Shown piece after piece: positions 3-62,086 of a DNA stretch of 64,000 nucleotides. Both the position numbers and the translations under genes were made by a program. The notes beneath the pieces are model-generated. The model worked only from the letters and a program-made list of their open reading frames with translations. It searched no databases and had not been told where the DNA came from. How positions within the stretch are numbered: position 1 is the first letter of the stretch; every line of letters starts with the position of its first letter. The stretch comes from an uncultured Actinomycetota bacterium. GTDB lineage: Bacteria > Actinomycetota > Acidimicrobiia > Spongiisociales > UBA4744. Location of the stretch: NCBI GenBank assembly GCA_963718995.1, contig CAVRAP010000008.1:1236-65235 (forward strand), written 5' to 3'.

Positions 3-1316
3 CCGGAGATCCACGTGCCCCCACCGCTTCCAGACCGCTTCAGCCTAGAAGTCCGGCTGGGCCGCGATCACGACGTTGAGGAATGGCTTGCCACGGATAC
101 GGCCCTTGACCGACCGGTACTCATCCGGGTGCTCGGCCCGGAAACCTCAATCGATCGAAGGCAGGCCTTCGTCGACGATACGCGCTCCGGGGCAGCCCCA
201 ACGCACGTGCACCTCGTCTCCGTCTACGCAGCCGGTCTGATCGAAGAAGGCGCCTATTCGGTCACCGAGTGGGCAGGTGGTGTCTCCATGGCCGACCGCC
301 TCGCCGCCGGAGAGACGATCCCCGCAGCAGAATTCCTCCCCAACGCCGCCGGGCTGGCCGACGGACTCGCGGCTTTCCATCAGGCCGGTGGGATTCACGG
401 GGCGATAAGTGCGCGAGCGATCTACTACTCCGGGTCACACCCGGCCAAACTCGGTTCGTTTGGCCGCCCTCACTCCGGAGCGTCCGTTGCCGAAGACACA
501 CGCGCCCTGGCAGAGACCCTCGAGACCTGCATAACCGGTCGCCCGGTTGGAACGGCGACACCTTCCCAGGTGGTCGATGGGATTCCGGCGACGGTCGACG
601 AGGCCCTGCAGGCTGCCCGCGTGGGGAACCTCGATGCCGCCGGTCTCGCTCAGGTACTCCACGCCACGACGCAGAATCCACCGACGAAGCCGCCCGAGCC
701 AAAGTGGTCGTGGCGGTGGTTGGCCCCGGCCACCCTCCTCTCCTTCCTAGCCGTCGGGATCGTGGCCATTGGCCTGGTCCTTCCCTCCGGGCCCGGCTCG
801 CCGATTCTGTTCCCGGATACGCCTGCTGCCAGCACAACCACCCTCACGCTGGCCACGACCTCGACCTCCGTCTCCGTCGTTGACGGCAGCCCGGCCCTGA
901 CCGTACGGGCCTTCTCCTACGACCCGGAAGGCGACGGTAGCGAGCACGACGAGAACGTTCCGCTGGTGATCGACGGTGATCCCGCCACCAGCTGGCGAAC
1001 CGAGCGGTACTTCGACCCCCTTCCCCGCCTCAAGAGGGGGGTCGGCATCGTGTTCGAACTGACCGGTCGACCAAACCAGTTCCTGGCGACCGGCGTCAGC
1101 AACGCAACCGCCTACACCCTGATGTGGGCCGCCGAGTTACCGGCCAACGGTATCGAAGGATGGGAACGTCTGGCCAGCGGCACCGTGTCGGGAGAGCGTC
1201 TGAGTGCACAGATCCCGGAGCGGGAGAACGGTTATTGGCTGCTCTGGTTCACCGATCTCCCCACCCAGGAGGACGGCTTCTACGCATCGGTTGCGGAAGT
1301 ACGCTTCCTTCCATGA
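3..1316 (+). CDS. MviN/MurJ-associated pseudokinase domain, TM segment and extracytoplasmic C-terminal domain; frame is open to the window edge, so the 5' end is probably outside
   Basis: Kinase-like fold but catalytic motifs are degenerate: no VAIK lysine (VLIRVL), HRD loop replaced by IHGAISARAIYY, DFG replaced by KLGSFGR. One TM helix (WSWRWLAPATLLSFLAVGIVAIGLV) then a ~170-aa domain. No stop upstream in frame. Synteny with mycobacterial mviN-sigM-antisigM-trxB-trxC-cwlM. Confidence 0.6.
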   Translation, partial: PEIHVPPPLPDRFSLEVRLGRDHDVEEWLATDTALDRPVLIRVLGPETSIDRRQAFVDDTRSGAAPTHVHLVSVYAAGLIEEGAYSVTEWAGGVSMADRLAAGETIPAAEFLPNAAGLADGLAAFHQAGGIHGAISARAIYYSGSHPAKLGSFGRPHSGASVAEDTRALAETLETCITGRPVGTATPSQVVDGIPATVDEALQAARVGNLDAAGLAQVLHATTQNPPTKPPEPKWSWRWLAPATLLSFLAVGIVAIGLVLPSGPGSPILFPDTPAASTTTLTLATTSTSVSVVDGSPALTVRAFSYDPEGDGSEHDENVPLVIDGDPATSWRTERYFDPLPRLKRGVGIVFELTGRPNQFLATGVSNATAYTLMWAAELPANGIEGWERLASGTVSGERLSAQIPERENGYWLLWFTDLPTQEDGFYASVAEVRFLP

Positions 1317-5470: not shown

Positions 5471-5480
5471 GCTTTCACTA

Positions 5481-5498
5481 TTACGTCACGTGACGTAA
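5481..5498. repeat. perfect 18-bp palindrome TTACGTCACGTGACGTAA between convergent cwlM and parB; candidate bidirectional terminator hairpin or protein-binding site
   Basis: Equals its own reverse complement; sits in the 42-bp gap between two convergent stop codons. Confidence 0.4.
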
Positions 5499-5512
5499 TG
5501 CTCCCTGAGCCA

Positions 5513-6373
5513 TTAGGCCGAAAAGAACTGCCGATAGATCCGCTCGAGATCGTCGAGGGAGCTGAAATCGATGACCAGCTTGCCGCGATCGTTGGCGTAC
5601 TTGATCTTCACCCTGGTCGACAACTGGTTGCGAAGTCGCTGCTCGAGCTCGACGATGGCGGCCGGCCGCGCCGGGGTCGCCCGCCGGCCGCTGTGATCCT
5701 CGGACACTGCCTGGTTGCGCGATCGGACCGCATCCTCTACTTGACGTACAGACCAACCTTCTTCGACTGCCCGATCGGCGATGTGCTCTGCAAATTTACG
5801 GTCCTCGAGACCAAGCAACGCCCGTGCATGTCCCGCCGACAGCTCACCCCGTTCCAGCTTCCCCTGGATGGCAGCCGGAAGTTGCAGGAGACGGAGAGAG
5901 TTGGTGATCGCCGACCGACTCTTCCCAACCCGGTTGCCCACCTCTTCGTGGGTAAGCCCGAAATCTTCTAACAACTCCTGGTAGGCAGTGGCTTCCTCGA
6001 GAGCGCTGAGATCCTCCCGCTGGAGGTTTTCCACCAGAGCCTCGGTAAGAAGCGACCGATCGTCGCTCTCCCTGATAATGGCAGGGATTTCCGTGAGACC
6101 GACCTTCCTGGCAGCTCTCCACCGTCGTTCGCCGGCAACCAGCGTGTATGAACCCTCTTCCGCTTCGCGAACGATGATGGGCTGCAAAACCCCGACCTCT
6201 ACGATCGACGCAGCCAATGAAGCGAGGGCCTCTTCGTCGAACATGGACCGGGGCTGATGGGGGTTTGCCGAGACACGGTCGATCGGAATAACCGCAAAGC
6301 CGAGGTGGTTCTCCTCGCCTTTCGGGATGAGCGCCTCGAGTCCTCGTCCAAGTCCACTCCTACGCGTTGCCAT
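5513..6373 (-). CDS. parB: chromosome partitioning protein ParB
   Basis: GLGRGLEALI N-terminus, ParB box II (GERRWRAA), HTH; SD GGAGG 9 nt upstream of the ATG. Confidence 0.9.
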   Translation of the reverse strand: MATRRSGLGRGLEALIPKGEENHLGFAVIPIDRVSANPHQPRSMFDEEALASLAASIVEVGVLQPIIVREAEEGSYTLVAGERRWRAARKVGLTEIPAIIRESDDRSLLTEALVENLQREDLSALEEATAYQELLEDFGLTHEEVGNRVGKSRSAITNSLRLLQLPAAIQGKLERGELSAGHARALLGLEDRKFAEHIADRAVEEGWSVRQVEDAVRSRNQAVSEDHSGRRATPARPAAIVELEQRLRNQLSTRVKIKYANDRGKLVIDFSSLDDLERIYRQFFSA

Positions 6374-6386
6374 GGGTAGATGCCTC

Positions 6387-7174
6387 CTAGTCGCGACCGT
6401 GTCGCCTGCGAAACTCTCGTCCCAGTTCCCGATACACGATCGCCGCCCCTACTCATTGGATCAAATGCCTCGATGGGTTCTCCATAGGATGGCGCCTCGG
6501 ACAAACGCACCGATCGGGGAATGACGGTCTTGAACGCCACATCGCCAAAGAAGTTCCTGACTTGCGCCACCACATCTCTCGAGAGGTTCGTGCGACCATC
6601 GAACATAGTCAGAACGACCCCGCCGATCTTGAGATCACGATTGAGGTTGCCGGAAACGAGTTCAATATTCTTCATCAATTGGCTGAGTCCCTCGAGGGCG
6701 TAGTACTCGCACTGAATCGGGATCAAAACTTCGCTCGAGGCGGCCAGGGCATTGATCGTCAAGAGGCCCAGGGATGGTGGGCAATCGATCAGAACGAAAT
6801 CGAAGTCCTTCTCAATATGGGAAAAGGCTTCCCGTAGGCGCAATTTCGCGGGAGAACATCGAAACCAGTTCGATTTCCGAGCCTGCCAGGTCGATCGTAG
6901 CCGGAACAACAAAGAGATCACGGACGCTCGTTGGTTCGATAACATCCACCAGGGGAGCGTTCCGAATGATGACGTCGTAAATTGAAGAGGTTATGGCAGA
7001 TCGGTCGATGCCGAGACCGGAGGTGCTGTTTCCCTGGGGATCGAGATCGACCACGAGGACCCGCTCGCCCTGATAGGACAGGGCGGCAGCCAGATTGATC
7101 GCGGTGGTTGACTTCCCCACGCCACCCTTCTGGTTGGTGATAGCGACAACGGTGAAGTCGTGTTCAGTGTTCAC
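6387..7174 (-). CDS. parA: chromosome partitioning ATPase ParA/Soj, interrupted in this sequence by two apparent +1 frameshifts (near 6844 and near 6445)
   Basis: N-terminal Walker A (KGGVGKST) and C-terminal part lie in different frames; removing one base from the aaa/ttt run at 6844-6846 restores SRELRLREAFSHIEKDFDFVLIDCPPSLG. A third frame gives the canonical C-terminus SRGAIVYRELGREF ending in a TAG that overlaps the parB SD. GTG start at 7174. Confidence 0.75.
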
Positions 7175-7817
7175 TGGGCTCCATGATAAGAAGTGAGACG
7201 GCGCCGTCAAGGACCGTTGCCGGAACCTCAACAATCCGCAGCGATCGTCCCGAGGCCGAAGGTCCGGCCACCGAGAGAACCGACCGCCGGCCGCGGATGC
7301 CCACCACGGCTCTGCCCTCCGGACGACACAACGCATCGGCAACGTCCCGCGCCCGGGCGGGTGGGAAAACAGCCCTGAATACGGCGCTTTCCCACCCCGA
7401 AGGCTCCTCGAGGGCGTCGCCCCGCTGCACATCGACATTCTCGAGGCCCAGTCGCCGTACGGCCCGCCGGGCCAGATCGAGTCGGCGGTCCGACCGATCC
7501 AAGAGGATGATCTGGGTCTGTGGCCAGAGAATCGCCAGGGGAATACCAGGGAGGCCAACGCCCGCACCAACGTCGAGCACCTGGCTAGGAGGACCATCCG
7601 GCCATCCGACGGCAAAACTGAGGGAGTCGGCGATATGGCGGGTCCAGATCCGCTCAGACTCGTGCGGTCCGATGCCCCCGGCTCGCACGGCCTCGTCGTT
7701 CAACCACGTCACGAATGATTCGAGTTGCGTCCACTGCGCTGAGGCCAGGGGTTCCGGCCATTTCAGCCAGCCGAGGATCCGCCCGACAGCCTCACGGCCC
7801 TCCTCAGCATGTTTCAC
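7164..7817 (-). CDS. rsmG: 16S rRNA (guanine527-N7)-methyltransferase RsmG (GidB)
   Basis: SAM-binding LDVGAGVGLPG motif; conserved position between jag and parA. Confidence 0.85.
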   Translation of the reverse strand: MKHAEEGREAVGRILGWLKWPEPLASAQWTQLESFVTWLNDEAVRAGGIGPHESERIWTRHIADSLSFAVGWPDGPPSQVLDVGAGVGLPGIPLAILWPQTQIILLDRSDRRLDLARRAVRRLGLENVDVQRGDALEEPSGWESAVFRAVFPPARARDVADALCRPEGRAVVGIRGRRSVLSVAGPSASGRSLRIVEVPATVLDGAVSLLIMEPSEH

Positions 7818-7825
7818 GTGAAACT
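7810..7825. promoter_or_regulatory. parS centromere-like site (TGTTTCACGTGAAACT)
   Basis: 15/16 match to the parS consensus TGTTNCACGTGAAACA; overlaps the rsmG start codon. Confidence 0.75.
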
Positions 7826-7841
7826 CGAGGGATGCCCCTAC

Positions 7842-8771
7842 TTACTCGTCGGCCGCAATGACGACCGAGCGCCGTGGCTCTTCGCCTTCCGAATAGGTCC
7901 GGAGGCCTTCCATCTCGCCAATGGTGTCGTGAATGACCTTGCGCTCCGCAGCATTCATGGGTTCGACCATGACTTCACCGCCCTCGTCTAGGACCTGTTG
8001 GCCCAAGCGCTGGGCATAGATCTTCAGCGCTTCGCGCCGACGCTCTGCATATCCGGCAATATCGAGTCTGATTCGGGCAGATTCCTGGGTCTTTCGCTGC
8101 ACAACCGTCTTGGCCAACTCGTGAATGGACTGCAGAATCACGCCTCGCGACCCCACCAGCGCCTCGGTTTCGCTCCCGAGCACATCCGCGTAGATGATAT
8201 CGTCGTCAACTCGTGTCTCAACGGTTCCCTCGAGGCCGAACGCTCCGAGCAGACCCTCGAGGAATTCGCCCACGACGCTGGCCTGCTCTTCTCGGCTCAC
8301 GCTTTTCTCCTTTGGTTGTGTATCAGATGTTTTGCCGTCGCCGGCCTTGGCGGAACTTGCTGGAGTTCGTTGCTTGCCCGACGGGTTCGACCGACGAGAG
8401 GACCCCGCTTGTTGGGCCTGGCCGGACTTCTTTTGTTGATCGCGCCCCTGCCCGGAACGGCCCACCCGGTCTCGACCTTGGCCAGAAGCTGATCGCTGAT
8501 CGCCTCTTTGCCTGGAGCTGCCTGCTTGGGAACGCTCTTCCCGGGTGCCGTCGCCCTTACCCTTGGCAGAACGGGTGCGGCGCCGCTTCTTCGGACGGGG
8601 TTTCACACGGACGACGGCGTCGGTACGGCCAATGCCCAGAAAGCCTTTTTCGGGCTCCTGGAGCACCTCGACGTCTACATCATCACGGGATTCGATGCCC
8701 AACTCAGCCAACGCGGCCTCAACGGCTACCTCAACGGAAGGTCCTTTGACTTCTACCCACTCCACGGTCAC
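7842..8771 (-). CDS. jag: Jag/KhpB-family RNA-binding protein (Jag_N, KH, R3H) with a long basic low-complexity linker
   Basis: Jag N-terminal domain, C-terminal KH-R3H (GSRGVILQSIHELA...RKVIHDTI); conserved yidC-jag-rsmG order. Confidence 0.8.
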   Translation of the reverse strand: MTVEWVEVKGPSVEVAVEAALAELGIESRDDVDVEVLQEPEKGFLGIGRTDAVVRVKPRPKKRRRTRSAKGKGDGTREERSQAGSSRQRGDQRSASGQGRDRVGRSGQGRDQQKKSGQAQQAGSSRRSNPSGKQRTPASSAKAGDGKTSDTQPKEKSVSREEQASVVGEFLEGLLGAFGLEGTVETRVDDDIIYADVLGSETEALVGSRGVILQSIHELAKTVVQRKTQESARIRLDIAGYAERRREALKIYAQRLGQQVLDEGGEVMVEPMNAAERKVIHDTIGEMEGLRTYSEGEEPRRSVVIAADE

Positions 8772-9619
8772 TTCCTCCTGCGCCGTTTGCGCTTCTTGGC
8801 TGACACCGGCTGCGAGACCGGCTTAGGCGGTGTTTCTACGGGATCGGGTTCCGGTTCCCGGGGGGCCGGTGTTGGACGGCCATCCATCTTGAAGATCAAC
8901 GCCTGTTGGCCGATCCGGAAGAAGTTGGCCGTGATGAAGTAGACGTTCAACCCTGCCGGGAAGGTGTACGCAAAGAAGCCGAACATCAGGGGCATGATCT
9001 TCGTGATCATTTGCATCTGCCGAGCCTGGTCGCTGTCCTGTTTCTGCCCGCGCGTCGTCTGCCATTGCTGGAAGTACGCGGTGCCCAGGACGACGAGCAC
9101 GGCCGCGAAATAGGGGAGGGCCGTGCCGAGGTCGAAGCCCGTGTCGGCACCGACGATCTCGCTTGGCGCCTTGCTGAGGTCCATGCCGAGGAACCTCTGC
9201 GGCGCCGTACTCAGTGCCTGGTAGAGAGCGGAATCCGCCGGAACGAAGGGAATCTGCTCAACACCGTCGGTGGACACATTGAGCGGGTTTCTGAGCAACC
9301 GGAATAGCCCGAACCAGATAGGCATTTGGATCAGCATCGGGAAGAGGCAGCCGGCCGGGTTGACGCCCTTTTCCTTGTAGAGCGCCATCATCTCTTTCTG
9401 GAGCGTCTCCTGCTCGTCCTTGTATTTCTTCTGGAGTTTCTTGACTTCCGGCTGGATTTCGGTCATGGCCCTCGTCGAACGCGTCTGTTTGAGGGTCAAG
9501 GGGAACATCAGCACATTGACCACGAGCGTCAGGAAAATTATGGAAAGCCCGTAGTTTGGGATGATTTCGTAGAAGAACGTCATCGGAACGGCGATGATCC
9601 TGGCCAGTGTGTCGAGCAT
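8768..9619 (-). CDS. yidC: membrane protein insertase YidC (short actinobacterial form)
   Basis: 60 kDa inner-membrane insertase core with five TM helices; 4-nt overlaps with neighbours. Confidence 0.9.
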   Translation of the reverse strand: MLDTLARIIAVPMTFFYEIIPNYGLSIIFLTLVVNVLMFPLTLKQTRSTRAMTEIQPEVKKLQKKYKDEQETLQKEMMALYKEKGVNPAGCLFPMLIQMPIWFGLFRLLRNPLNVSTDGVEQIPFVPADSALYQALSTAPQRFLGMDLSKAPSEIVGADTGFDLGTALPYFAAVLVVLGTAYFQQWQTTRGQKQDSDQARQMQMITKIMPLMFGFFAYTFPAGLNVYFITANFFRIGQQALIFKMDGRPTPAPREPEPDPVETPPKPVSQPVSAKKRKRRRRK

Positions 9620-9882
9620 TAGCGGTCTTTCCTAGAGGTGGCGGGTACCGGGTCGTATCCGCCCTCAGCGAGCGGATGGCACCGGCCGATTCGTTTCATT
9701 CCCATCCACGTTCCCCGCATCAGCCCGAAACGGCCAATGGCCTCGTAGGAATAGCTGGAACAGGTAGGGGAGTAACGGCAGTTCTTGCCCATGGAGGGCG
9801 AAAAGGCTTTCTGGTAGGTGCGAATAGCGGCGCGCCCCAACCAGGCCGCCGGCCCGGTTCTTCTTGCTTCGAGATCATCCAC
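9619..9882 (-). CDS. yidD: membrane protein insertion efficiency factor YidD
   Basis: [10 protein letters not shown]...[15 protein letters not shown] signature; GTG start at 9882 (alternatives 9897 or 9933) overlapping the rnpA 3' end. Confidence 0.75.
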
Positions 9883-10240
9883 CTGGTGTCTCCTCACCAA
9901 CCGCCCCTTGCAACCATCGCACAACTTCGCCAAACGGTGCGGTCAGCACCGTTTCTGAAGCAATGACCACATAGTCATGGCCGTCTCGCAGGGGTATCCC
10001 CACAAGCGCTTCCCTGAGGCGGCGTTTCGCACGGTTGCGTTGCACGGCGCCGCCTATTCTCTTCTTCCCGGCCACCACGCCAACGCGCGGAGGACCCGGA
10101 TCGCCCGATGCCACGATAACGACCACACCGCCCCTACGAAGACGTCTTCCTCTACGAAAGACCCGCTGGAAGGCGACACGACCACGAAGAGGAGCGTACG
10201 GCCGGCCGCTAGGCGGAGATACGCTGACGACCTTTGGCAC
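9875..10240 (-). CDS. rnpA: ribonuclease P protein component
   Basis: Basic RnpA motif ([11 protein letters not shown]...[19 protein letters not shown]); position between rpmH and yidD. Confidence 0.8.
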
Positions 10241-10343
10241 GCCTGCGCTTCAGGATCGCCCGTCCGGAACGTGTACGCATCCGGGAACGAAAGCCATGCT
10301 TTCTCTTGCGTCGCCGAACGTTGGGTTGGTAGGTACGTTTCAT
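10209..10343 (-). CDS. rpmH: 50S ribosomal protein L34
   Basis: [44 protein letters not shown], 44 aa from the internal ATG. Confidence 0.9.
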
Positions 10344-10765
10344 CGAGACCCCGGTTTCGAAAGAAGAGGCAAACGAAAAGGTTACTGCGGGCTGGTCACT
10401 TGTCAAAGGCGTGGACGCCGGGCGACCGGCCGGTCAGGGCTACGGGTCGTGACGGAACGACCACCCGGGGAGGACCCCGCGAAGACTTTTCCTAGTGCGC
10501 GAAAAGCAGTCTTGCCCTGATTCGTGGGGGTAAGGGGGGGTTCGAGGGTTGTTCCAATCCGGCGAAAAGGAGTCCCAAGCTGGGCAAACTTAATCCGTCA
10601 TAGCGTCGGAAAAGTCTGGGAAGAGCCGATTTCGCGTTTTTGTGGGTCACCCGGTCACGTCATATACTCGCTCACCGTTGGCACCCGTGGAGTGGCCCCA
10701 CTTCCCCCGGATGGAATACATCCGGCTGTGGCCGCTTCGCCTGAGGGACCGACGTGCAGGCTGGT

Positions 10766-10798
10766 TTCTCCACATATTGTGGACAGGTCTGTGGATAG
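10766..10798. promoter_or_regulatory. cluster of three DnaA boxes in the dnaA promoter region (TTCTCCACA, TTGTGGACA, TGTGGATAG)
   Basis: Matches to the actinobacterial DnaA-box consensus TTGTCCACA 40-70 bp upstream of the dnaA GTG; typical autoregulatory arrangement. Confidence 0.5.
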
Positions 10799-10837
10799 AG
10801 ATGTTGTAAGCAGACGTAGTGACTCGGGAGGGGACAC

Positions 10838-12208
10838 GTGGCGGAACCTCAGTCGCTGACGGGGGAAGTGGACTACTTCAGAAACGCGGTGCAATCCCGT
10901 GTGAGTCCCGTCAACTGGCAAACCTGGCTGGCTCCACTTGGAGTACGACCGAACGATGGTTCGGTCAGCATCACCGCACCAAGCGAATTCCATCTGCGGT
11001 GGGTCCGTGAGAAGCACTTGGCCGTTCTCGAGGAGGCCGCACTGGCAACGTTCGGGCCCGGGAGCGAACTGATCTTCGATATCGATCTCACCGACCTGGC
11101 GATGAGGGATACCAACTTCGAGGACGAGGAGGAAGGGCCGCCGGTCAGTGCCAACAGCCGCCCGCCCGAATTGGCGCCGGCAGAGCGGCGCCTCCAGGCC
11201 AAATACACCTTCGAAAATTTCGTCGTAGGACAATCAAACCGGTTCGCTCATGCAGCCGCGATGGCCGTCGCCGAACAACCCGGCGGGCATTACAACCCCC
11301 TCTTCATCTACGGCGGCGCCGGGCTGGGGAAGACCCATCTCCTCCACGCCGTCGGGCACCATGCTCTCGAGCTGCGGCCGGCCGCCGTTGTTCGCTACGT
11401 ATCTTCAGAGAACTTCTTCAATGAATTCATCGACGGGATCCGCAAGAAACGCATGGATGAGTTCAAAGCCCGATATCGCACGACCGATGTATTGCTCCTC
11501 GACGACGTGCAGTTCTTTGAGCGGAAGGAACAGATCCTCGAGGAGTTCTTCCACACCTTCAACGACCTGTACGAGGCCGGCAAGCAAATGGTCATCAGCT
11601 CCGACCGGCATCCCAAACACCTCGCGACCCTCGAAGACCGTCTGCGGAGCCGGTTCGAGTGGGGCCTCCTGACCGATATCCAACCACCCGACGTGGAGAC
11701 CCGTATTGCGATCCTTCGCAAGAACGCGGAGTTTGCTCCCAAGCCGGTTGGGGCCGACGTTCTTCATTTCATCGGTGAGCATGTCCAGGACAACATCCGG
11801 GAACTCGAAGGCGCTCTGACCCGCGTCACTGCTTATGCGGCCCTCACCAATCAGACCATTTCCCTCGAGATGGCCAAGGATGTACTGCAGGATCTGGTGC
11901 CGGCCGCATCACAACGACCCGTCACGGCCGAAGACATCATCAACGCCACTGCTGCTGCCTTCGGATTCTCTCCAGACGATCTCCGGAGCCCGAGCCGGCG
12001 TCAGCCCCTTGTCCTGTCTCGCCAGGTTGCGATGTACGTGTGTCGCGAACAAACCGATCTGTCTCTCCCGAAGATCGGGGCCCTGTTTGGCGGCCGGGAC
12101 CACACCACCGTCATGCACGCCATCGACAAAGTGAAGCGACTCTTGCTCACCGATCACCAGGTCTTTGAGCGAGTCACCGCTCTCTCCCAACAGCTGAGGA
12201 GAACGTGA
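10838..12208 (+). CDS. dnaA: chromosomal replication initiator protein DnaA
   Basis: AAA+ Walker A ([13 protein letters not shown]), Walker B (LLLDDVQF), DnaA signature, C-terminal DNA-binding domain (VAMYVCRE...[20 protein letters not shown]); GTG start with SD GGGAGGGG. Confidence 0.95.
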
Positions 12209-12397
12209 TCTTGTCCACACGAAGCTGCGGTCTTGTCGCGGGTGCGGTGGATAACGCCGACACCTGTCCCCATGGGGTGTGGACGGACCGCAGGTAAGGT
12301 GACCAGCCCTTTTGGTGAGTTCTCCCCAATCCACAGGGCCTACTACAACTACTACCGTTTAGTTACAAAAACATAGAAGCAGAAGGGATGGGACAAC
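12209..12397. other. oriC, chromosomal origin of replication in the dnaA-dnaN intergenic region
   Basis: At least five DnaA boxes (TTGTCCACA at 12211, GTGGATAAC at 12248, TGTCCCCA, TGTGGACGG at 12277, ATCCACAGG at 12329), then an AT-rich stretch (12341-12385) as a candidate DNA unwinding element. Confidence 0.7.
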
Positions 12398-13484
12398 TTG
12401 CGGATTCGAGCTGAAAGAGACGACCTGGCCGATGTGTTCTCGAGAGCCAATCGAGGAGTCGGGGTACGTCCTGCCCAGGCCATCCTGCAAGGCGTCTTGT
12501 GCGAGGTACAGGGCAACAACCTCAAAGTCACCGGGACCGACCTGGAGATGACCGTCAGGACCACCACAGAAGTGGAAGTCCTGGAGGAAGGTTCCATCGT
12601 GATCCCTGCCCGTTTGGCTACGGAGGCCATCAAGAAGATGCCGATCGGAGCAGTCACGCTTTCCTCGAGCGACGGCGAGGTCGAGATCATGGGAGCGGGA
12701 CCGCGCTTCAGCCTGCGGGAGCTGCCGGTGGACGAATTCCCCCATCTCGGTGAGGTGGACTTCACAGGAGCGGTTGACGCCGATGGCGACGAGTTGATTG
12801 CCGCCATTGCCCAGGCCACCGTGGGAGCTTCGATTGACTCAGCCCGACCCATCTTGACCGGGGTTCTCTTTGAGAAAGACGACGAGGGCGTCCGCCTGGT
12901 CGCGACCGACTCGTATCGGTCTGGCTGTTCGCAAGCTGCCCGGCGTTGCTTTGAAAGATTCGGGACTCGTGCCCGCTCGCGGGCTGCGGGAAATGAGCCG
13001 GACGGTCGGCGCCGCCAAGATGCAGTTCTCGATCCAGCAGCGAGAGGCCGTCTTCGGCTCCTCGCGCGGGTCGCTGACCTTGCGCCTCATCGAGGGAACC
13101 TTCCCCAACTACCGGCAGCTCCTTCCCGAGTCCTACCCCAATCGCGTGGTTGTTACCAAGGAAGGGTTGCTCGAAGCGCTCGGAAGGGCGTCCCTTGTGG
13201 CCGAGGATCACATTCCGGTGCGGCTCCGGTTGATGGAAGGTGGCGTCGAGGTCACGGTCACCCGCCAGGACGTTGGAGGCGAAACGGAACACATCCCCGG
13301 CGAGTATCAGGGCGAAGCTGAGGACGTGACCATTGCGTTCAACCCGCGTTACCTGACGGACGGGGTAGCGGCTATCGATTCGGACAAGGTGCAGATCGAG
13401 GTCACCGATGGACTCAAGCCAAGCGTGATCCGCGGCGTTGATGATGATCGGTTCACCTATCTGTTGATGCCCGTTCGCATCTGA
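12398..13484 (+). CDS. dnaN: DNA polymerase III beta sliding clamp; one apparent single-base insertion near 12920 splits it into two track ORFs
   Basis: N-terminal 175 aa in ORF 12398..13321 and C-terminal 190 aa in ORF 12870..13484 are colinear DnaN; deleting one T after cgg at ~12920 gives VATDSYRLAVRKLPG; TTG start with SD AAGGGA. Confidence 0.85.
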
Positions 13485-14579
13485 ATGGAGTTCTCCTGGC
13501 TCGAGCTCAGGGATTTCCGCTCGTACCGTGAACTTCGGATCGAACCCGATCCCTCCATCAACGTGCTGGTTGGGGCAAATGGTGCGGGGAAAACCAACCT
13601 CCTCGAGGGTGCTGCGTATCTCAGCGCCCTCCGTTCGTTCCGGGGGGCACCCGACGAAGCCTTGATCAACGACGAGTCTGAAGCAGCGGTAGTTCGGGGT
13701 GAGGTGCGACATGCGGAAAGCACCTCACTCATCGAACTCGAGCTCCCGCGCAGCGGCCGGCGGCGTGTCCGGGTGAACGGCCAGCGTCCGGCTCGTTCGA
13801 CAGATCTCCTGGGTCATGTGCGGGCGGTCATGTTCCTTCCCGATGACCTCGACATCGTCAAGAGGGGCCCGGCCTACAGACGGGACTTCCTCGATGCGGT
13901 CGCGGTGCAGCTCTGGCCGGGGGCCTACCTCGACCAGCAGGAATACGATCGGGCGTTGCGTCAGCGAAACTCACTGCTGCGGCAGTCGGGCTGGGACGTG
14001 GATCGGCCCACGCTGGCCGTCTGGGATCAACGGCTGTCACAGGCAGCCGGCAAAATGATGGTGCGTCGCGCCGGCGCAGCCGCTGCCCTGCGGGAACGTG
14101 TTGCGGAAACCTATGCCCGCCTTTCGGGGGCGGGGACGCCTGTTGAGATGCTCTATGCCTCGAAGTGGGGAGGCTCGTTGGAGGGACAACCAGCGGAGCA
14201 TACGGCGGTCCGGCTGGCCGAAGCCCTGGAAGGCAGCCGTCGGGCGGATACCGAACGGAGGGTGACGACCATGGGACCCCATCGAGACGAACCCTGGTTC
14301 ACGGTGGCGGGCCGCGACGCCAGGACCCGGGCCAGCCAAGGGGAGCAGCGAACGCTGGCCCTGAGCCTGCGCCTGGCTTCGCATGCGGCCATCAGTGAGG
14401 CCACCGGGGAAACGGCCTTGCTGCTCCTTGACGACGTTTTCTCCGAGTTGGATATGGAGCGAGCCAATGCATTGGCCGGCATGCTGCCACCGGCCCAGAC
14501 TTTCATAACGACGGCTCGGGAAGAGGAAGTGCCGGTGCACGGCCGCACCTTCGTGGTCGAGCCGGGGAGGATCCGATGA
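13485..14579 (+). CDS. recF: DNA replication and repair protein RecF
   Basis: Walker A (GANGAGKTNLLEG), SMC-like signature and Walker B (LLLDDVFSELD). Confidence 0.9.
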   Translation: MEFSWLELRDFRSYRELRIEPDPSINVLVGANGAGKTNLLEGAAYLSALRSFRGAPDEALINDESEAAVVRGEVRHAESTSLIELELPRSGRRRVRVNGQRPARSTDLLGHVRAVMFLPDDLDIVKRGPAYRRDFLDAVAVQLWPGAYLDQQEYDRALRQRNSLLRQSGWDVDRPTLAVWDQRLSQAAGKMMVRRAGAAAALRERVAETYARLSGAGTPVEMLYASKWGGSLEGQPAEHTAVRLAEALEGSRRADTERRVTTMGPHRDEPWFTVAGRDARTRASQGEQRTLALSLRLASHAAISEATGETALLLLDDVFSELDMERANALAGMLPPAQTFITTAREEEVPVHGRTFVVEPGRIR

Positions 14580-14887
14580 GCAAACTCGAACCGATGGGCG
14601 GCCTGGTAGCCCGGGCCCTGAAGAACCTCGGCGTCGAGCGACTCGATGTGACGCTCAGTCTGGTCGCCGAGTGGGACGAGCTCACGCCCGAACCGTGGCG
14701 GTCGCACGCTACGCCGCTGCTCCTCAAGGGAGGAGAGCTTCTCGTCGAAGCAGACTCTCCGCCGGCGGTCAGTCTCCTCCGGTACGCCGTCGGCGACCTC
14801 CTGCGGAGCCTCGATGAACGCTTTGGCGAGGGCGTCATCGGGTCGGTCCGCGTGCAGTCTCCGCCCCCGGCGGGTCGACGCGCCTAG
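14576..14887 (+). CDS. DUF721 (DciA-like) protein in the conserved recF-gyrB gap
   Basis: 103-aa ORF with 4-nt overlap to recF; same position as the mycobacterial DUF721 gene. Confidence 0.7.
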   Translation: MSKLEPMGGLVARALKNLGVERLDVTLSLVAEWDELTPEPWRSHATPLLLKGGELLVEADSPPAVSLLRYAVGDLLRSLDERFGEGVIGSVRVQSPPPAGRRA

Positions 14888-15054
14888 AGAGGGTCAAAGC
14901 ATTTGGAATGGTCCGTAGGTATTGGCGTTTTCGCCTCTTCAGAGCTTGGGGTAGTCGGCCCAAACGGGTATACTTACATGCGTGTAAACAAGGGCTCTGG
15001 CGAGACTCGTCGGGTGGTTTCGCTGTCGGCCCGTTTTCTTTTTGAAGGAGCGTT

Positions 15055-16978
15055 GTGAGTACTGCGAATCGCGCCTCTGAGAGGTACGAGGCCGCCGATA
15101 TCACCGTCCTCGAAGGCCTCGAGGCGGTCCGGCGCCGTCCGGGCATGTATATCGGATCGACCGGACCACGGGGCCTCCACCATCTCTTGTGGGAAGTGGT
15201 GGACAACTCGGTCGACGAGGCGATGGCCGGCTTCTGCACGCGTATTGATGTGACCATCCGCGAAGACGAAAGCGTGCAAGTACGGGACAACGGTCGCGGC
15301 ATCCCGGTCGACAGACACAAGAAGACCAAACAGTCGGCACTGACCACCGTTCTGACCACCCTGCACGCCGGGGGTAAGTTCGAAGCGGGCGCCTACCAGG
15401 TCTCCGGCGGCTTGCATGGCGTCGGCGTTTCGGTCGTCAACGCCTTGTCGGCTCGACTTGAAGCCGAGATTGTGCGCGACGGGTTCCAATGGACGCAGAT
15501 CTTCGAGGAAGGCTATCCCGATCGGTCCCGTCAAGAAGGGCAAACCCGCCAAACGGACCGGCACCCAGATCACCTATTGGCCGTCGCCGAAAACGTTCGT
15601 TGAAACCCGGTCCCTGGACCTGAGTATCGTGACGGCCCGGCTCCGCGAGATGGCATTCCTCAATCGGGGCCTGGAGATTCGACTCGTCGACGAACGAGAA
15701 GAAGAACCTGTCGAAGAGGTCTTTCACTACAAGGGTGGCCTGATCGACTACATCAAGCACCTCAACGCAACGAAGGATCCGCTGCACGCCCACATCATCT
15801 ACTTCGACGATCAGAGCGAAGATGCCGAAGTCGAGGTGGCGATGCAGTGGACGTCCTCATATACCGAGACGGTTCTGAGCTTCGCCAACAACATCAACAC
15901 CCATGAAGGCGGTACGCACGAGGAAGGGTTCAGAAAGGCACTGACGAGGGCGCTCAACGACTTCGCCAGATCCAAGGGGCTCCTCAAGGAGAAGGACGAA
16001 AACCTCACAGGCGAGGACGTGCGAGAAGGTTTGACGGCGGTGGTTTCGGTCAAGGTGCGCTCTCCGCAATTCGAGGGACAAACTAAGACCAAACTGGGGA
16101 ACACCGAGATCCGTGGCTATGTAGAGAAGACGCTCAATCGCCTCCTGCCCGAATGGCTGGAGAGGTACGGCGGCGAGGGACGCTCGATTGCGGACAAGAG
16201 CCTCATGGCTTCCCGGGCCAGGTTGGCAGCCCGCAAGGCAAGGGAGCTGACCCGGCGCAAGAGCATGCTCGAGTCGGCCAGCCTGCCCGGCAAGCTCGCC
16301 GATTGTTCATCGCGCGACGCATCGGTGAGTGAATTGTTCATCGTCGAGGGGGACAGCGCCGCCGGTCCCGCCAAGCAGGGACGAAACAGCGAAACTCAGG
16401 CAATCCTCCCCATTCGCGGCAAGATCATCAACGTTGAGAAGGCCCGTCTCGCGAAAGCCCTGCAAAACACGGAGATCCAGTCGCTGATAACCGCCATCGG
16501 GACGAGCATCGGCGAGGAATTCGATATCGCGAAGGCTCGCTACCACAAGGTGATTTTGCTGACCGACGCCGACGTAGACGGGGCTCATATCCGCACCCTG
16601 CTGCTGACGTTCTTCTTCCGTCATATGCGGCCCCTCATCGAGGCCGGGTACGTCTACTTCGCCCAACCCCCGCTCTATAGGGTCAAGGCCGGCAAAGAAG
16701 TTCACTACCTCGGGTCCGACGAGGAACTCGAGCAGCTCAGAGAAGAACTGAGCGGGAGAAAGCTCGACGTCAGCCGATTCAAAGGCCTTGGTGAAATGAA
16801 TGCCTCTGAGCTGCGAGACACCTCCATGGATCCCGCCCTGCGACATCTCGTCAGGGTCGAACTGGAGGACGCTGCGCTGTCGGAGGAGGTCTTCTCAACG
16901 CTGATGGGGGATGACGTCGCTTCCCGTAAACACTTTATCCAGCGCAATGCCAAGGACGTCCGGTTCCTCGACGTCTGA
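15055..16978 (+). CDS. gyrB: DNA gyrase subunit B; one apparent single-base insertion near 15520 splits it into two track ORFs
   Basis: N-terminal ATPase (ORF 15055..15603) and remainder (ORF 15416..16978) are colinear GyrB in frames offset by one; the junction reads ...QIFEEGYP / [26 protein letters not shown]; GTG start with SD GAAGGAG. Confidence 0.9.
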
Positions 16979-31142: not shown

Positions 31143-33056
31143 CTAAGGGGCGGCGGTCGTGGTGGTCGTTGCCTGGGTTGTTGTGGTCACGGGTGCCCTC
31201 CCGAGCGTGATCGAGATCGTGCTGCCCGGCTCTACCTTTGCTCCGGCTGCGGGCAGTTGCTCGGCGACCAATCCGTCCTTGTCGGGCGCCACCTCAATCT
31301 TGGTCGCGTTGACCCTCAGAACAAGGCCGAGTGCTTGCAGAGCGGACCGCGCCTGGTCTTCCGTTGATCCGATGAGGTTGGGCACATCGACCGGTTCCGG
31401 GCCTTTCGAGACGTATACCGTAATCCGGTCGGCCTTGTTGACCGTAGCCCCGGCCGCCGGATCGGTTCTGATCACAAAACCTTTGAGAACCTCTGATGAG
31501 AACTCGGTATCGAATACAACCGTGAGGCCCAGATTGCCGAGAATGAATCCGACATCGCCCTCCGACCGGCCGGTCAGATCGTTGGGAACCGGGAATTCTT
31601 CGAGACCCGTGGAGACGACCAGATCGATAGCAGTGCCGGGGGCGGCATCCTCCCCGGCGGGCGGGTTCTGGGAGATCACTTGCCCCGCGGGTATCGCATC
31701 GTCGGGAATCTGCTCCACGGTACCCAGGACGAACTCGGCCTTCTCGATGAGCTCGGTCGCCCGGATCAAGTCCTGTCCGACCACGGGAGGAACCGGGAAG
31801 GCTTCCGCTCCGAGCGAAACGTAGACGATGATGAACGATCCGTCCTCGGCCTCCTCGCCGGCGGCGGGTTTGGTACCGATGACCCGGCCTTCCTCGACGG
31901 TTTCGCTGGCGTTGGGTTCGGGGATCACATTGAAACCCAGTTGCTGCAACTCCAACAACGCTTCAGCCTGAGTCATACCGGCCACATCAGGAATCAAGAT
32001 GAGGGTTTGGTCGGGTGTCCCGGGCGCCAAAGCCCTGAGGAGCAGGAAGATGCCAACAGCCAACGCAATCACCAGGGCGAACGTGGTGATGATGAAGGGC
32101 AGTTGGCTGCTGTTGGGCTCGGTAGGGGCCACCTGGCGGTAGATCTCGTCGGGGGTGGCGGTGGCTGGCGGGATGGGCGCTGCTTGGATCAGGCGCGTTG
32201 GTGCCTCGGCTGATGGGACCGCAGCAGGGGTCTCGCCGCGTAGGAAGAGCAGGAGCGCCTGGCGCATATCGTCGGCCGTCTGATAGCGAGCGTCGGGGTT
32301 CTTGTCGATGGCCCGCATCACAATTGCGTCTAGCTCGGGGGGCACATCCGGGTTGTCTATGGACGGTTGAGCAGCCAGCGACGAAACGTGTTGATAGGCG
32401 ACGGCCACCGGACTATCGCCCGAGAAGGGGGGCCGTCCGGTGAGCATCTCATACATGACCACACCGAGGGCGTAGATATCCGAGCGTTCGTCGGCGGGGG
32501 TTCCCTGCGCCTGTTCCGGGCTGAAGTACGTGGCCGTTCCGATGACGGCGCCGGTCTTGGTCAGCTCGGAAGAGTCGTCCCAGGCCCGTGCGATTCCGAA
32601 GTCGGTTACCTTCACCGTCCCATCCGAAGTCAGGAGCATGTTTCCGGGCTTGATATCACGGTGGACGAGACCGGAGCGGTGGGCCACACTCAACGCAGCC
32701 GCCACTTCAGCACTGATTTCGACGGCGCGACGCGGGAGAAGCGGGCCTTCGGCCCGCAGCACATCTCGCAGAGATCTGCCCTCGATCAGTTCCATCACGA
32801 TGAAGTAGGTCGATCCTTCCTGTCCCCAGTCGTAGATGCCGACGATGTTGGGATGGCTGAGGTTGGCGGCGGCCTGGGCCTCCCGCCGGAATCGTTTGAC
32901 GAAGGCTTCGTCGGAACTGAATTGTGAGTGGAGTACTTTGACCGCAACCCGGCGGCCCAGCAACGTGTCACGGGCCTCATAGACGTCGGCCATACCACCG
33001 CGAGCGATATGCCCGAGCAGTTCGTAGCGGTCGGCGAGCGTGCGGGAAGGTTCCAT
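31143..33056 (-). CDS. pknB: serine/threonine protein kinase PknB with C-terminal PASTA repeats
   Basis: GGMADVYEA glycine loop, VAVK, HRDIKPGNMLL, DFG, APE motifs; TM; PASTA repeats; start could also be the upstream ATG at 33086. Confidence 0.9.
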   Translation of the reverse strand: MEPSRTLADRYELLGHIARGGMADVYEARDTLLGRRVAVKVLHSQFSSDEAFVKRFRREAQAAANLSHPNIVGIYDWGQEGSTYFIVMELIEGRSLRDVLRAEGPLLPRRAVEISAEVAAALSVAHRSGLVHRDIKPGNMLLTSDGTVKVTDFGIARAWDDSSELTKTGAVIGTATYFSPEQAQGTPADERSDIYALGVVMYEMLTGRPPFSGDSPVAVAYQHVSSLAAQPSIDNPDVPPELDAIVMRAIDKNPDARYQTADDMRQALLLFLRGETPAAVPSAEAPTRLIQAAPIPPATATPDEIYRQVAPTEPNSSQLPFIITTFALVIALAVGIFLLLRALAPGTPDQTLILIPDVAGMTQAEALLELQQLGFNVIPEPNASETVEEGRVIGTKPAAGEEAEDGSFIIVYVSLGAEAFPVPPVVGQDLIRATELIEKAEFVLGTVEQIPDDAIPAGQVISQNPPAGEDAAPGTAIDLVVSTGLEEFPVPNDLTGRSEGDVGFILGNLGLTVVFDTEFSSEVLKGFVIRTDPAAGATVNKADRITVYVSKGPEPVDVPNLIGSTEDQARSALQALGLVLRVNATKIEVAPDKDGLVAEQLPAAGAKVEPGSTISITLGRAPVTTTTQATTTTTAAP

Positions 33057-33078
33057 CGGCTGAGATTGTAGAGGGGGT

Positions 33079-36948: not shown

Positions 36949-37006
36949 CAGAGGGTCACGAGGGTCTTGATGGAGAAGGCAGGGCCGACCGAAGCGTCGT
37001 GCATGA

Positions 37007-37666: not shown

Positions 37667-37817
37667 AGGGGTCAGTCTACGGCACGTGCGTCGGCTGATC
37701 GTGGCCCGGTCCACTCGATTGTCGACCGTGGAGCCGCCCATTTTCGGGCGTGGTACGATGCTCCCCCTCACAGATTCTGTGTCTCGTAACGACCGTGTGC
37801 GTGGATCGCAGGATTAG

Positions 37818-54327: not shown

Positions 54328-55735
54328 TTAGGGTTGCCGGAAAGGGACGGAGTCGGCGATCGGCAAAGAGATCCGGACTGTTGCGCCCCCGCCGGGCGTG
54401 CCGGTGATGGCGACGTCACCCTGGTGCGATGAGACAACCTCGCGGACGATGGCCAGTCCGAGGCCGGCGCCTCCCTTGGTTCGGTCCCGGCCCCGATCCG
54501 GTCGTGCGAATCGGTCGAACACCAACTCGCGTTCGGATTCGGCTATCCCCGGTCCATGGTCGGCGACGGTGATGTGAGCGTGGGCATCGGTGCGATGCGC
54601 CTCCAGCTCAATCGGGGTAGACGCTCCGCCGTAGGCGACGGCGTTGGTGATGAGGTTTTCGATGGCCTGCCGCAACCAGACGGGATCGGCGTCGACCATG
54701 ATTGATCCGTCGGTGTCGACACGGATGTCGCAACCGGTGGAGATACGCATATCCTCGGCGATGTCCTTCACGAGGGCGCCGACATCCAGGCGCTCACGGC
54801 CGGAGCCGATCTCTCGATCGAGGCGGGCGAGCGCCAGCAGATCTTCAATCAACCGCCCGGCGCGATGGCTGGCTTCATTGATACGTTCCATCGCCCGATC
54901 GAGCTTCGGGCCCGGCTCCACCCCGCCTTCGGCGTAGAGCTCGGCGTATCCGGTGATGGCTGCAATCGGCGTCCGCAGCTCGTGGGAGGCATCGTCGGCA
55001 AAGCGGCGGAGGCGCTCGGCCTCGCGCAGGCGGTCCCGGTCGGCGCTCTCGATACGGGCGAGCATGTGGTCGAGTGCCGTCGCCAGTCTTCCGAGCTCGG
55101 TACTTGACTGGACCAGGTCGGCCCTTTTCGTGAGGTCACCCTCGGCGATGGCGCCGGCGGTGTCGATCATGTCGTCGACCGGTCGGAATCCTCTTCTGAG
55201 CAGCAACCACGCGACCGTGATTCCCGCCAGCGCCGCCATCAAGCTGACGGCCAGCGAGATCAAGACCGTTTGGCGGGCCGCCAAGTCCACTGAGTCCAGG
55301 GACCGGGCGAGCAGCTCATATCCATCGGGGCTCTCCCGGACCAAGGCGCGCACCGATCCCGAACCATCGATTGTCGCCCAGCGTGACGAAGGTTCCGGCG
55401 CTTCCACCCAGGTCTGCCTCGGTCAGATTGCTCACGTCCGGCAGGGGTTCAGGCTCGTCGGCGTACCCGGCGGGCTGTTCGAAGACGACCTCGCCATTCT
55501 GGTTGAAGCGAATCAGAGCGAAAGGTTGGAAGGGCTCGTCGCCGGGGGCGGGCACGGCCGGACTGGGACCGGGACCGGGTCGGGTGGAGAAGGCCAGCAG
55601 GTCTTCGTCCACCCGATCGATGAGAACCCGTCTGGTCGTCAGCGAAACGGCGGCGGCGATAGAGGCGCTGACAATGAGGATGATGAGCCCGACCACGATG
55701 GTCAGGCGACGCCGCAGCGTCCACGGCCGGCTCAT
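54328..55735 (-). CDS. two-component sensor histidine kinase (TM sensor, HAMP, HisKA, HATPase); one apparent frameshift between 55316 and 55407
   Basis: N-terminal TM plus sensor in ORF 55316..55756, remainder in ORF 54328..55407 (H-box DDASHELRTPIAAITGYAEL; N, G1, G2 boxes); ATGA overlap with the response regulator stop. Confidence 0.8.
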
Positions 55736-62061: not shown

Positions 62062-62086
62062 CAACAAACAGCTAGGAGGTGTGAAC

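What the first reader, a model, noticed from the sequence alone, without database searches (positions are those of the whole stretch)
6387..7174. parA (soj) carries two apparent +1 frameshifts, yet its canonical stop still overlaps the parB SD
The ParA N-terminus (Walker A KGGVGKST), middle (DFDFVLIDCPPSLG) and C-terminus (SRGAIVYRELGREF) lie in three different frames. Removing one A from the AAA run (+ strand TTT at 6844-6846) and one G/C from the GGGGCGGCG run (~6441-6449) restores a textbook 262-aa ParA. Its TAG is embedded in the GGAGG SD of parB. Both lesions sit in homopolymer or GC runs, and dnaN, gyrB and a histidine kinase show the same lesion type. Sequencing indels are therefore far more likely than a true pseudogene, though a real parA loss with retained parB-parS would be biologically notable.
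Basis: seen in the sequence. Interest (0 to 1): 0.55.

Follow-up and report, generated by a model that had tools for sequence, protein, structure and literature searches.

The report
parA split by assembly indel errors
An ordinary chromosome-partitioning gene (parA) looks broken by two extra bases, but the same one-base insertions also break the essential genes dnaN and gyrB in this uncultured-bacterium assembly, so these are almost certainly sequence-consensus errors and not a real gene loss.

Summary
parA (minus strand, GTG 7174 to TAG 6389-6387) lies in three frames, with a +1 switch at ~6844-6848 and another at ~6443-6445. Removing one base at each site gives a 261-aa ParA that aligns without gaps to solved ParA/Soj structures. 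Its TAG does overlap the AGGAGG in front of parB.

- Nine related Acidimicrobiia MAGs all have an intact parA, and the window differs from them by exactly two private one-base insertions.
- Purifying selection is equally strong before, between and after the breaks (pN/pS 0.01-0.15), and there is no excess of private substitutions.
- The same lesion, a window-private one-base insertion, interrupts dnaN (12919-12921), gyrB (15519-15521) and a histidine kinase (55375-55379).
- Related Nanopore-only MAGs carry their own frame breaks in housekeeping genes, while three of the four short-read MAGs show none.

One correction: the lesions sit in runs of only 1-3 bases, and no 7-base homopolymer coincides with any of the five detected frame breaks.

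I could not inspect reads, and no second assembly of the same species exists in the collections. The verdict therefore stays an inference, at about 0.9 confidence. Low interest; an artefact.

The parts
6849..7174 (-). parA segment 1: GTG start at 7174 (overlaps the rsmG 3' end by 11 nt), deviant Walker A KGGVGKST, through ...ELVSMFSR
   Evidence: HSP 7174-6842, frame -1
6844..6848 (-). Lesion 1: one extra base. Window reads CGCGAAATTG where relatives read CGNGAATTG. Most simply AA->AAA at 6844-6846; MAFFT places the gap at 6848.
   Evidence: DNA alignment to 9 relatives; repair
6446..6843 (-). parA segment 2 (+1 frame): LRLREAFSHIEKDFDFVLIDCPPSLG ... EAFDPMSRG
   Evidence: HSP 6846-6442, frame -2
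6443..6445 (-). Lesion 2: one extra base. Window reads AGGGGCGGCGATC where relatives read AGGGGC-GCGATC. Deleting any base in 6437-6452 restores the frame; deleting 6443-6445 gives the conserved SRGAI.
6387..6442 (-). parA segment 3 (second +1 frame): AIVYRELGREFRRRHGRD plus TAG stop (6389-6387)
   Evidence: HSP 6443-6390, frame -3
6383..6388 (-). AGGAGG Shine-Dalgarno of parB, overlapping the parA TAG; 9-nt spacer to the ATG at 6373
   Evidence: read directly
5513..6373 (-). parB, intact, 286 aa
   Evidence: (TIGR00180 192.6 bits, cutoff 58.45); 88-96% identical to relatives
7810..7825 (.). parS-like site TGTTTCACGTGAAACT at the jag/rsmG boundary; its 14-bp core is conserved at the equivalent position in 7 relatives
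12919..12921 (+). Same lesion type in dnaN (gene 12398-13484): window CGGTCTGG where relatives read CGGT-TGG or CGGC-TGG; splits the beta-clamp central domain
15519..15521 (+). Same lesion type in gyrB (gene 15055-16978): window CCCGATCGG where relatives read CCC-ATCGG or CCG-GTCGG; splits the HATPase_c domain
55375..55379 (-). Same lesion type in a HAMP histidine kinase (gene 55735-54328): frame changes between ...TFVTLG and TIDGSGSVRALV...

Best explanation
The locus is an ordinary, functional chromosomal parA (soj) of an uncultured Acidimicrobiia bacterium. It sits in the standard origin-proximal array rnpA-yidD-yidC-jag-rsmG-parA-parB, with a parS site upstream. The two +1 'frameshifts' are single-base insertion errors in the consensus of the deposited metagenome assembly. 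They are not mutations in the organism.

Shown:
- Exactly two window-private extra bases.
- A gapless full-length match to ParA once they are removed.
- Undiminished purifying selection across all three segments.
- Three further private one-base insertions in dnaN, gyrB and a histidine kinase of the same contig.

Inferred:
- The contig comes from an error-prone long-read (probably Nanopore-only) metagenome assembly of modest coverage.
- The extra bases arose in consensus calling or polishing. Possible causes are low coverage, strain microdiversity (at four of the five sites the extra base plus its neighbour look like two alternative alleles of a variable codon position) or a methylation-motif effect (two sites abut CGATCG).
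For: -: three frames.
- one-base repairs give a 261-aa ORF.
- residues 9-257 align without gaps to ParA 8ray_B residues 5-253 (E 1.8e-87), across both junctions. Soj 1wcv gives E 8e-65.
- all 9 related loci encode parA in a single frame (87-98% aa identity). Only the window is split.
- the DNA alignment shows two window-specific insertion columns, no window-specific deletions and no other indels.
- pN/pS is 0.01-0.11 in segments 1 and 2 and 0.07-0.18 in the 17-codon segment 3.
- only one window-private substitution at a conserved column (A246V). Intact neighbours carry 1-5.
- private single-base insertions in dnaN and gyrB.
- the same in the histidine kinase. An intact 468-aa homologue matches the repaired length exactly.
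- the 120-aa N-terminal fragment is on record from the 103,138-bp public contig, so the break is in the deposited assembly.
- related 'MFD' MAGs L003, L006 and L009 have their own frame breaks in dnaN, recF, rnpA, trxB and parB. Short-read MAGs L002, L004 and L005 have none.
- (PMC12313526): MFD MAGs are Nanopore-only Flye assemblies with one Medaka round.
- (PMC9262707): Nanopore consensus indels cause frameshifted gene calls, and bins below 40x still need short-read polishing.
Against: - No reads were available, so the extra bases were never shown to be absent from the underlying data.
- The platform and identity of the window's own assembly could not be established. Only sources 'NCBI, ENA' and a 103,138-bp contig are known.
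- The sites are not long homopolymers, the classical Nanopore failure mode. None of the six 7-nt runs in the window lies at any of the five detected frame breaks.
- All five lesions are insertions, and four of the five lie within 9 kb. A simple uniform random-error model does not predict this (roughly P~0.06 each by my own estimate).
- Two hits in one 0.8-kb gene is mildly unexpected at 5 lesions per 64 kb.
- The one independent assembly of this population (Logan contig L025) matches the window perfectly, but it covers only 59733-62885 and none of the lesions.
Confidence: 0.9

Rival explanations
1. Genuine, very recent pseudogenisation of parA in this population, with parB and parS retained. 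The lesions in dnaN, gyrB and the kinase would be unrelated assembly errors.
For: The breaks are present in the deposited record. Two lesions in one 0.8-kb gene is more than the window-wide rate of 5 per 64 kb predicts. parB and parS are intact. From my own knowledge, not tested here: some bacteria such as Streptococcus pneumoniae naturally keep ParB-parS without ParA, so loss is biologically possible.
Against: There is no relaxation of selection in any segment and no excess of private substitutions. All nine relatives are intact. The lesions are of exactly the same kind as those in the essential genes dnaN and gyrB on the same contig, so an assembly error process is demonstrably active here. 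This rival needs two independent inactivating events with zero subsequent decay.
Confidence: 0.05
2. Programmed recoding: two +1 ribosomal frameshifts or transcriptional slippage events produce full-length ParA from the sequence as written.
For: Both shifts are +1 and restore a perfect protein. Lesion 1 lies at a short A run, where slippage is conceivable.
Against: Neither site is conserved; nine of nine orthologues encode the protein in-frame at both positions. The five lesion contexts share no slippery motif. No chromosomal ParA is known to need recoding (own knowledge). The same 'recoding' would have to apply to dnaN, gyrB and a kinase.
Confidence: 0.01
3. The sequence is correct but represents a chimeric consensus of co-existing strains. 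Real SNP alleles were merged side by side into the contig, so no single cell carries the extra bases. This is a sub-type of artefact with a different cause from random read error.
For: At dnaN the window has T and C where relatives have T or C (CGG[T/C]TG). At gyrB it has G and A where relatives have GTC or ATC. At parA lesion 2 and the kinase it has GGC+G at a Gly wobble position. Lesions are concentrated in the most conserved genes. PMC9262707 treats microdiversity as a factor to evaluate for MAG quality.
Against: Lesion 1 (AA->AAA) does not fit. At this divergence (pS 0.4-0.7) nearly every wobble position varies among relatives, so the 'both alleles' pattern is expected by chance. There are no read data to show polymorphism.
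Confidence: 0.25

Closest known systems
Chromosomal ParA/Soj partition ATPases (solved: 8ray 'ParA family protein'; Thermus thermophilus Soj 1wcv/2bek; Helicobacter pylori Soj 6iub)
   Same: Deviant Walker A KGGVGKST. Full-length collinear match (E 1.8e-87 to 8ray_B, gapless over residues 9-257). The gene lies immediately upstream of parB with a parS site nearby in the origin region.
   Different: As deposited, the reading frame is interrupted twice by one extra base. Nothing else distinguishes it.
Frameshifted gene calls caused by residual indels in long-read (Nanopore) consensus assemblies (PMC9262707; proovframe preprint 10.1101/2021.08.23.457338; MFD-LR catalogue PMC12313526)
   Same: Isolated single-base indels split otherwise perfectly conserved genes, including essential ones. 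Sister MAGs from a Nanopore-only catalogue show the same phenomenon.
   Different: The literature emphasises long homopolymers. Here the contexts are runs of 1-3 bases and all five events are insertions. The platform of this particular contig is not established.
Natural ParB-parS systems without ParA (e.g. Streptococcus pneumoniae; own knowledge, not tested here)
   Same: Intact parB and parS next to a non-functional or absent parA would resemble this.
   Different: Those lineages lack the gene altogether. Here a fully conserved parA under strong purifying selection is present.

Membership tests
Chromosomal ParA/Soj (deviant Walker A partition ATPase) | Deviant Walker A motif KGGxGK[ST] near the N-terminus | tested here: met
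   KGGVGKST at residues 16-23 of the protein starting at GTG 7174
Chromosomal ParA/Soj (deviant Walker A partition ATPase) | Full-length collinear similarity to experimentally solved ParA/Soj proteins | tested here: met
   8ray_B E 1.8e-87, residues 9-257 to 5-253 with no gaps; 1wcv Soj E 8.2e-65. Valid only after removing the two extra bases.
Chromosomal ParA/Soj (deviant Walker A partition ATPase) | Operon with parB and a parS site in the origin-proximal region | tested here: met
   parB at 5513-6373 (TIGR00180 192.6 bits against cutoff 58.45). parS-like site at 7810-7825, conserved in relatives. dnaA-dnaN-recF-gyrB-gyrA are adjacent.
Chromosomal ParA/Soj (deviant Walker A partition ATPase) | Uninterrupted reading frame | tested here: not met
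   Three frames in the deposited sequence. The frame is restored by deleting one base at each of two sites.
Chromosomal ParA/Soj (deviant Walker A partition ATPase) | ATP-dependent dimerisation, non-specific DNA binding, ParB-stimulated ATPase activity | not testable with these tools
   Biochemical properties
Genuine pseudogene | Relaxed selection: elevated pN/pS downstream of the lesion and excess lineage-private substitutions | tested here: not met
   pN/pS is 0.01-0.18 in all segments against 8 relatives. One private change at a conserved column, compared with 1-5 in intact neighbours.
Genuine pseudogene | Lesions specific to a dispensable gene while essential genes of the same genome are intact | tested here: not met
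   dnaN and gyrB carry the same private one-base insertions
Genuine pseudogene | Lesion supported by independent sequence data from the same organism | not testable with these tools
   No reads. No same-species second assembly. Logan contig L025 does not cover the gene.
Programmed +1 frameshift / transcriptional slippage | Frameshift site conserved in orthologues | tested here: not met
   Nine of nine orthologues are in-frame at both sites
Programmed +1 frameshift / transcriptional slippage | Recognisable slippery or stimulatory motif at the shift site | tested here: not met
   The contexts are CGCGAAATTG, GGGGCGGCGATC, CGGTCTGG, CCCGATCGG and CTGGGCGACA, with no shared motif
Long-read assembly consensus indel artefact | Multiple isolated single-base indels scattered over unrelated, otherwise perfectly conserved genes, including essential ones | tested here: met
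   Five lesions in four genes. Twenty other large ORFs are complete.
Long-read assembly consensus indel artefact | Assembly produced from error-prone long reads without short-read polishing | tested here: inconclusive
   The source record is not identifiable (NCBI/ENA, one 103,138-bp contig). The closest relatives are Nanopore-only MFD MAGs and show similar breaks.
Long-read assembly consensus indel artefact | Lesions located in long homopolymers | tested here: not met
   Runs of 1-3 bases only. The six 7-nt runs in the window lie at none of the five detected frame breaks.
Long-read assembly consensus indel artefact | Reads or short-read data disagree with the consensus at the site | not testable with these tools
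   No read access

The most novel reading that the evidence does not exclude
The two insertions in parA are real. An uncultured soil Acidimicrobiia population has just inactivated ParA while keeping ParB and parS, caught before any further decay. It would be a natural snapshot of a ParABS system turning into a ParB-parS-only (condensin-loading) system.
Probability: 0.03. Interest if true: 0.4.

Novelty: not a real feature. Interest (0 to 1): 0.06.

Why it matters
There is no biological discovery here. The practical value is as a caution. This contig carries at least five one-base insertions in 64 kb, two of them in essential replication genes. Any 'pseudogene', 'split gene' or 'gene loss' called from this assembly should therefore be treated as suspect until polished; the same likely applies to the related long-read MAGs L003, L006 and L009, which show their own frame breaks. 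The non-homopolymer context of the errors means homopolymer-aware filters would not catch them. If the parA lesions were real, they would document very recent ParA loss with retained ParB-parS, which would be of moderate interest to chromosome-segregation researchers.

Tried and rejected
1. Exact-protein look-ups for an intact allele. Four repaired ParA variants, repaired DnaN, two GyrB variants and the repaired kinase are all absent from the 15-billion-protein collection. ParB is not retrievable through the look-up of encoding contigs.
2. Independent assembly. The only Logan contig of this population (run ERR12040029, L025) is 100% identical to window 59733-62885 but covers no lesion.
3. Scan of JGI metagenome contigs with a pattern accepting lesion 1 with or without the extra A: no match.
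4. Search for a same-species genome. The best relatives have parA only 88.5% nt identical (L009). The 161,890-bp contig seen in protein clusters is equally distant.
5. Resolving ERR12040029 or the sample through the MFD paper: no supplements are held.
6. GATC/CGATCG proximity as evidence for methylation-linked error. GATC occurs once per 113 bp, so proximity to it is uninformative. Two of four sites lie within 2 nt of CGATCG, a zone that covers 1.1% of the window. This is suggestive but post hoc, and 68 other CGATCG sites are clean.
7. Intrinsic codon-usage Viterbi segmentation. It recovered four of the five breaks, including the kinase junction. It missed the 54-nt last parA segment, so short terminal frame breaks elsewhere could remain undetected.
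8. Programmed frameshifting: rejected for lack of conservation.
9. Clustering of private substitutions around the lesions: only A246V next to lesion 2, too few to conclude anything.

Full report
**Observation.**
- The N-terminal part runs in one frame, from the GTG at 7174 through KGGVGKST to ...ELVSMFSRE.
- The middle part, ...LRLREAFSHIEKDFDFVLIDCPPSLG...EAFDPMSRG, is in the +1 frame.
- The C-terminus, AIVYRELGREFRRRHGRD*, is in the next +1 frame.

tblastn of the repaired protein against the window gives three collinear HSPs in frames -1, -2 and -3 (7174-6842, 6846-6442, 6443-6390). Deleting one A of the AAA at 6844-6846 together with any single base in 6437-6452 yields one ORF. That ORF is 261 aa, not 262 unless the stop is counted. 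The stop TAG (6389-6387) overlaps AGGAGG (6388-6383), nine bases ahead of the parB ATG at 6373.

**What the gene is.** The repaired protein matches the solved ParA 8ray_B at E 1.8e-87. Residues 9-257 align to 5-253 with no gap, straight across both junctions. It matches Thermus Soj (1wcv) at E 8e-65. Each lesion is therefore exactly one surplus base. The neighbours are:
- RsmG, a weak hit (73.5 bits, below the 99.5 cutoff);
- ParB (TIGR00180 192.6 bits against a cutoff of 58.45);
- upstream on the same strand, ORFs I read as jag, yidC, yidD and rnpA (named from ORF translations and gene order, not family-tested);
- divergently, the dnaA, dnaN, recF, gyrB, gyrA cluster (dnaN and gyrB supported by Pfam; dnaA, recF and gyrA named by cluster annotations).

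A parS-like site, TGTTTCACGTGAAACT, lies at 7810-7825. Its core is conserved at the equivalent place in seven relatives. This is the textbook origin-proximal ParABS locus.

**Comparison with relatives.** A scan of species-representative genomes with ParB returned nine Acidimicrobiia MAG loci with 88-96% ParB identity. All nine encode parA as one uninterrupted frame, 87-98% identical to the repaired protein. In the DNA alignment the window has exactly two private insertion columns, no private deletions and no other indels.
- At lesion 1 the window reads CGCGAAATTG and the relatives read CGNGAATTG.
- At lesion 2 the window reads AGGGGCGGCGATC and the relatives read AGGGGC-GCGATC.

The best intact database homologue is 95% identical (P0001).

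**Selection.** Nei-Gojobori-type counts on the repaired alignment give pN/pS of 0.01-0.11 before and between the breaks, and 0.07-0.18 in the 17 codons after the second break, against eight relatives. The repaired ParA has a single window-private change at a conserved column, A246V, two residues after lesion 2. Intact neighbours carry between 1 and 5: ParB 2, YidC 2, TrxB 3 and RsmG 5. The frame has therefore been maintained up to the present. An old pseudogene is excluded.

**The same lesion elsewhere.**
- *dnaN.* It is split within the beta-clamp central domain. PF02767 positions 4-48 of 116 are in one ORF, and the C-terminal domain is in the next.
- *gyrB.* It is split inside HATPase_c. Positions 3-93 of 111 are in one ORF; the DNA_gyraseB, Toprim and C-terminal domains are in the next.
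- *Extra bases.* DNA alignments locate one private extra base in each gene: 12921, CGGTCTGG against CGG[T/C]-TGG, and 15520, CCCGATCGG against CCC-ATCGG or CCG-GTCGG.
- *Histidine kinase.* The kinase downstream of an OmpR-type regulator has TM1 and its sensor domain in one frame, and TM2-HAMP-HisKA-HATPase in the +1 frame. Removing one base at 55375-55376 gives a 468-aa protein. Its best homologue, P0211 (93% identity, 100% coverage), is also 468 aa and aligns gaplessly through ...TLGTIDGSGSVRALV....

All five events are one-base insertions. Twenty further large ORFs between 19 and 64 kb show complete Pfam domain coverage. The detectable load is thus about 5 per 64 kb, with four events within 6.4-15.5 kb. 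The beta clamp and gyrase B are essential in bacteria (established knowledge), and these are the canonical copies beside dnaA. Their 'inactivation' cannot be real, which shows that an artefactual insertion process operates on this contig.

**Provenance.** Exact look-ups show that the window's proteins, including the 120-aa N-terminal ParA fragment, are on record from a single 103,138-bp contig held by NCBI and ENA. The breaks are therefore in the deposited assembly and were not introduced afterwards.

The closest relatives are 'MFD' MAGs with Flye-style contig names. [quoted passage not shown] The same group reported that Nanopore consensus indels cause frameshifted gene calls, and that bins below roughly 40x still need short-read polishing (PMC9262707).

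Consistent with this, the MFD loci L003, L006 and L009 carry their own frame switches:
- in dnaN, recF, rnpA and trxB;
- in parB of L009, where the match spans 859 nt for 286 aa;
- at many further L009-only sites.

The short-read-style MAGs L002, L004 and L005 show none. L008 shows one, in the low-complexity Jag linker. I could not prove that the window's own contig is an MFD or Nanopore assembly.

**Error context.** The runs involved are 1-3 bases long. None of the six 7-nt homopolymers lies at any of the five detected frame breaks; the G7 at 18582 lies inside the intact 817-aa gyrA ORF. Two alternative causes are possible but untested.
- At four of the five sites the extra base plus its neighbour look like two alleles of a variable codon position, as if strain variants had been merged. 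At this divergence that pattern is also expected by chance.
- Lesion 2 and the gyrB lesion lie within 2 nt of CGATCG, a zone covering 1.1% of the window. This is post hoc, and 68 other CGATCG sites are clean.

**Attempts at direct confirmation.** None of the repaired ParA, DnaN, GyrB or kinase sequences is on record. A Logan assembly of run ERR12040029 reproduces window 59733-62885 with 100% identity but does not reach any lesion. A JGI metagenome scan for the lesion-1 region, with or without the extra A, found nothing. No same-species genome is available.

**Verdict.** This is an ordinary chromosomal parA whose apparent double frameshift is, with about 0.9 confidence, an assembly-consensus artefact. 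A genuine, very recent parA inactivation cannot be strictly excluded without reads. It would require two independent hits with no subsequent decay, in a contig that demonstrably contains the same kind of false insertions in essential genes. Programmed recoding is rejected because the sites are not conserved in any orthologue.

Noticed in passing
window 12919-12921 (dnaN), 15519-15521 (gyrB), 55375-55379 (histidine kinase): Three further window-private single-base insertions split the essential genes dnaN and gyrB and a HAMP histidine kinase. All five lesions in the window are insertions; none is a deletion.
   Followed up: yes
window 6400-15600: Four of the five lesions cluster in about 9 kb around the replication-origin genes, and only one lies in the remaining 55 kb. 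This could reflect locally poorer consensus in highly conserved genes shared with co-occurring relatives. It could also partly reflect my better detection power where related loci were available.
   Followed up: partly
window 7810-7825; L001 8551-8564 and equivalents in L003, L005-L009: parS-like site TGTTTCACGTGAAACT at the jag/rsmG boundary, about 640 bp upstream of parA. The 14-bp core GTTTCACGTGAAAC is conserved at the same relative position in seven Acidimicrobiia relatives.
   Followed up: partly
window 5480-5499: Perfect 20-bp palindrome ATTACGTCACGTGACGTAAT, 14 nt downstream of the parB stop. It has a CACGTG core like parS but different arms. Its 16-bp core has no exact match in any of the 25 fetched loci. 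Its function (terminator stem or protein-binding site) is unknown.
   Followed up: partly
L009 (CAVQSB010000007.1), L003, L006: Related long-read 'MFD' MAGs have their own frame breaks in conserved genes. In L009 the parB match spans 859 nt for 286 aa, and there are L009-only frame switches in trxB and other genes. L003 has breaks in dnaN and recF, and L006 in recF and rnpA. The short-read MAGs L002, L004 and L005 show none.
   Followed up: partly
window 6436-6438 (ParA residue 246) and 15512-15514 (GyrB Tyr where relatives have His/Arg): Window-private amino-acid changes lie within 2-3 codons of lesion 2 (A246V; GTG where relatives have GCC/GCT, two base changes) and of the gyrB lesion (TAT where relatives have CAT/CAC/CGN). 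They hint at small local patches of poor consensus rather than isolated indels.
   Followed up: partly
window, whole: GATC occurs 568 times (1 per 113 bp). My own arithmetic from base composition predicts about 220, so it is roughly 2.6-fold enriched. The parA lesion 2 and gyrB lesions abut CGATCG (70 sites in the window).
   Followed up: partly
window 59733-62885 = L025: A Logan assembly contig from public run ERR12040029 is 100% identical to this stretch over 3,153 bp. The same population is therefore present in an independently assembled dataset, which could be used for read-level checks.
   Followed up: partly
window 3-1313 (+): This 437-codon open frame matches only positions 25-147 of 258 of the protein-kinase profile (PF07714, E 1e-6). 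It may be a degenerate or pseudokinase domain, a gene running off the window start, or another undetected lesion.
   Followed up: no
window 31143-37771 (-): The conserved actinobacterial cell-envelope and division cluster is intact: FhaA-like (FhaA_N+FHA), FHA protein, PP2C phosphatase, FtsW/RodA, a PBP transpeptidase and a PASTA Ser/Thr kinase (PknB-like). All have full domain coverage.
   Followed up: no
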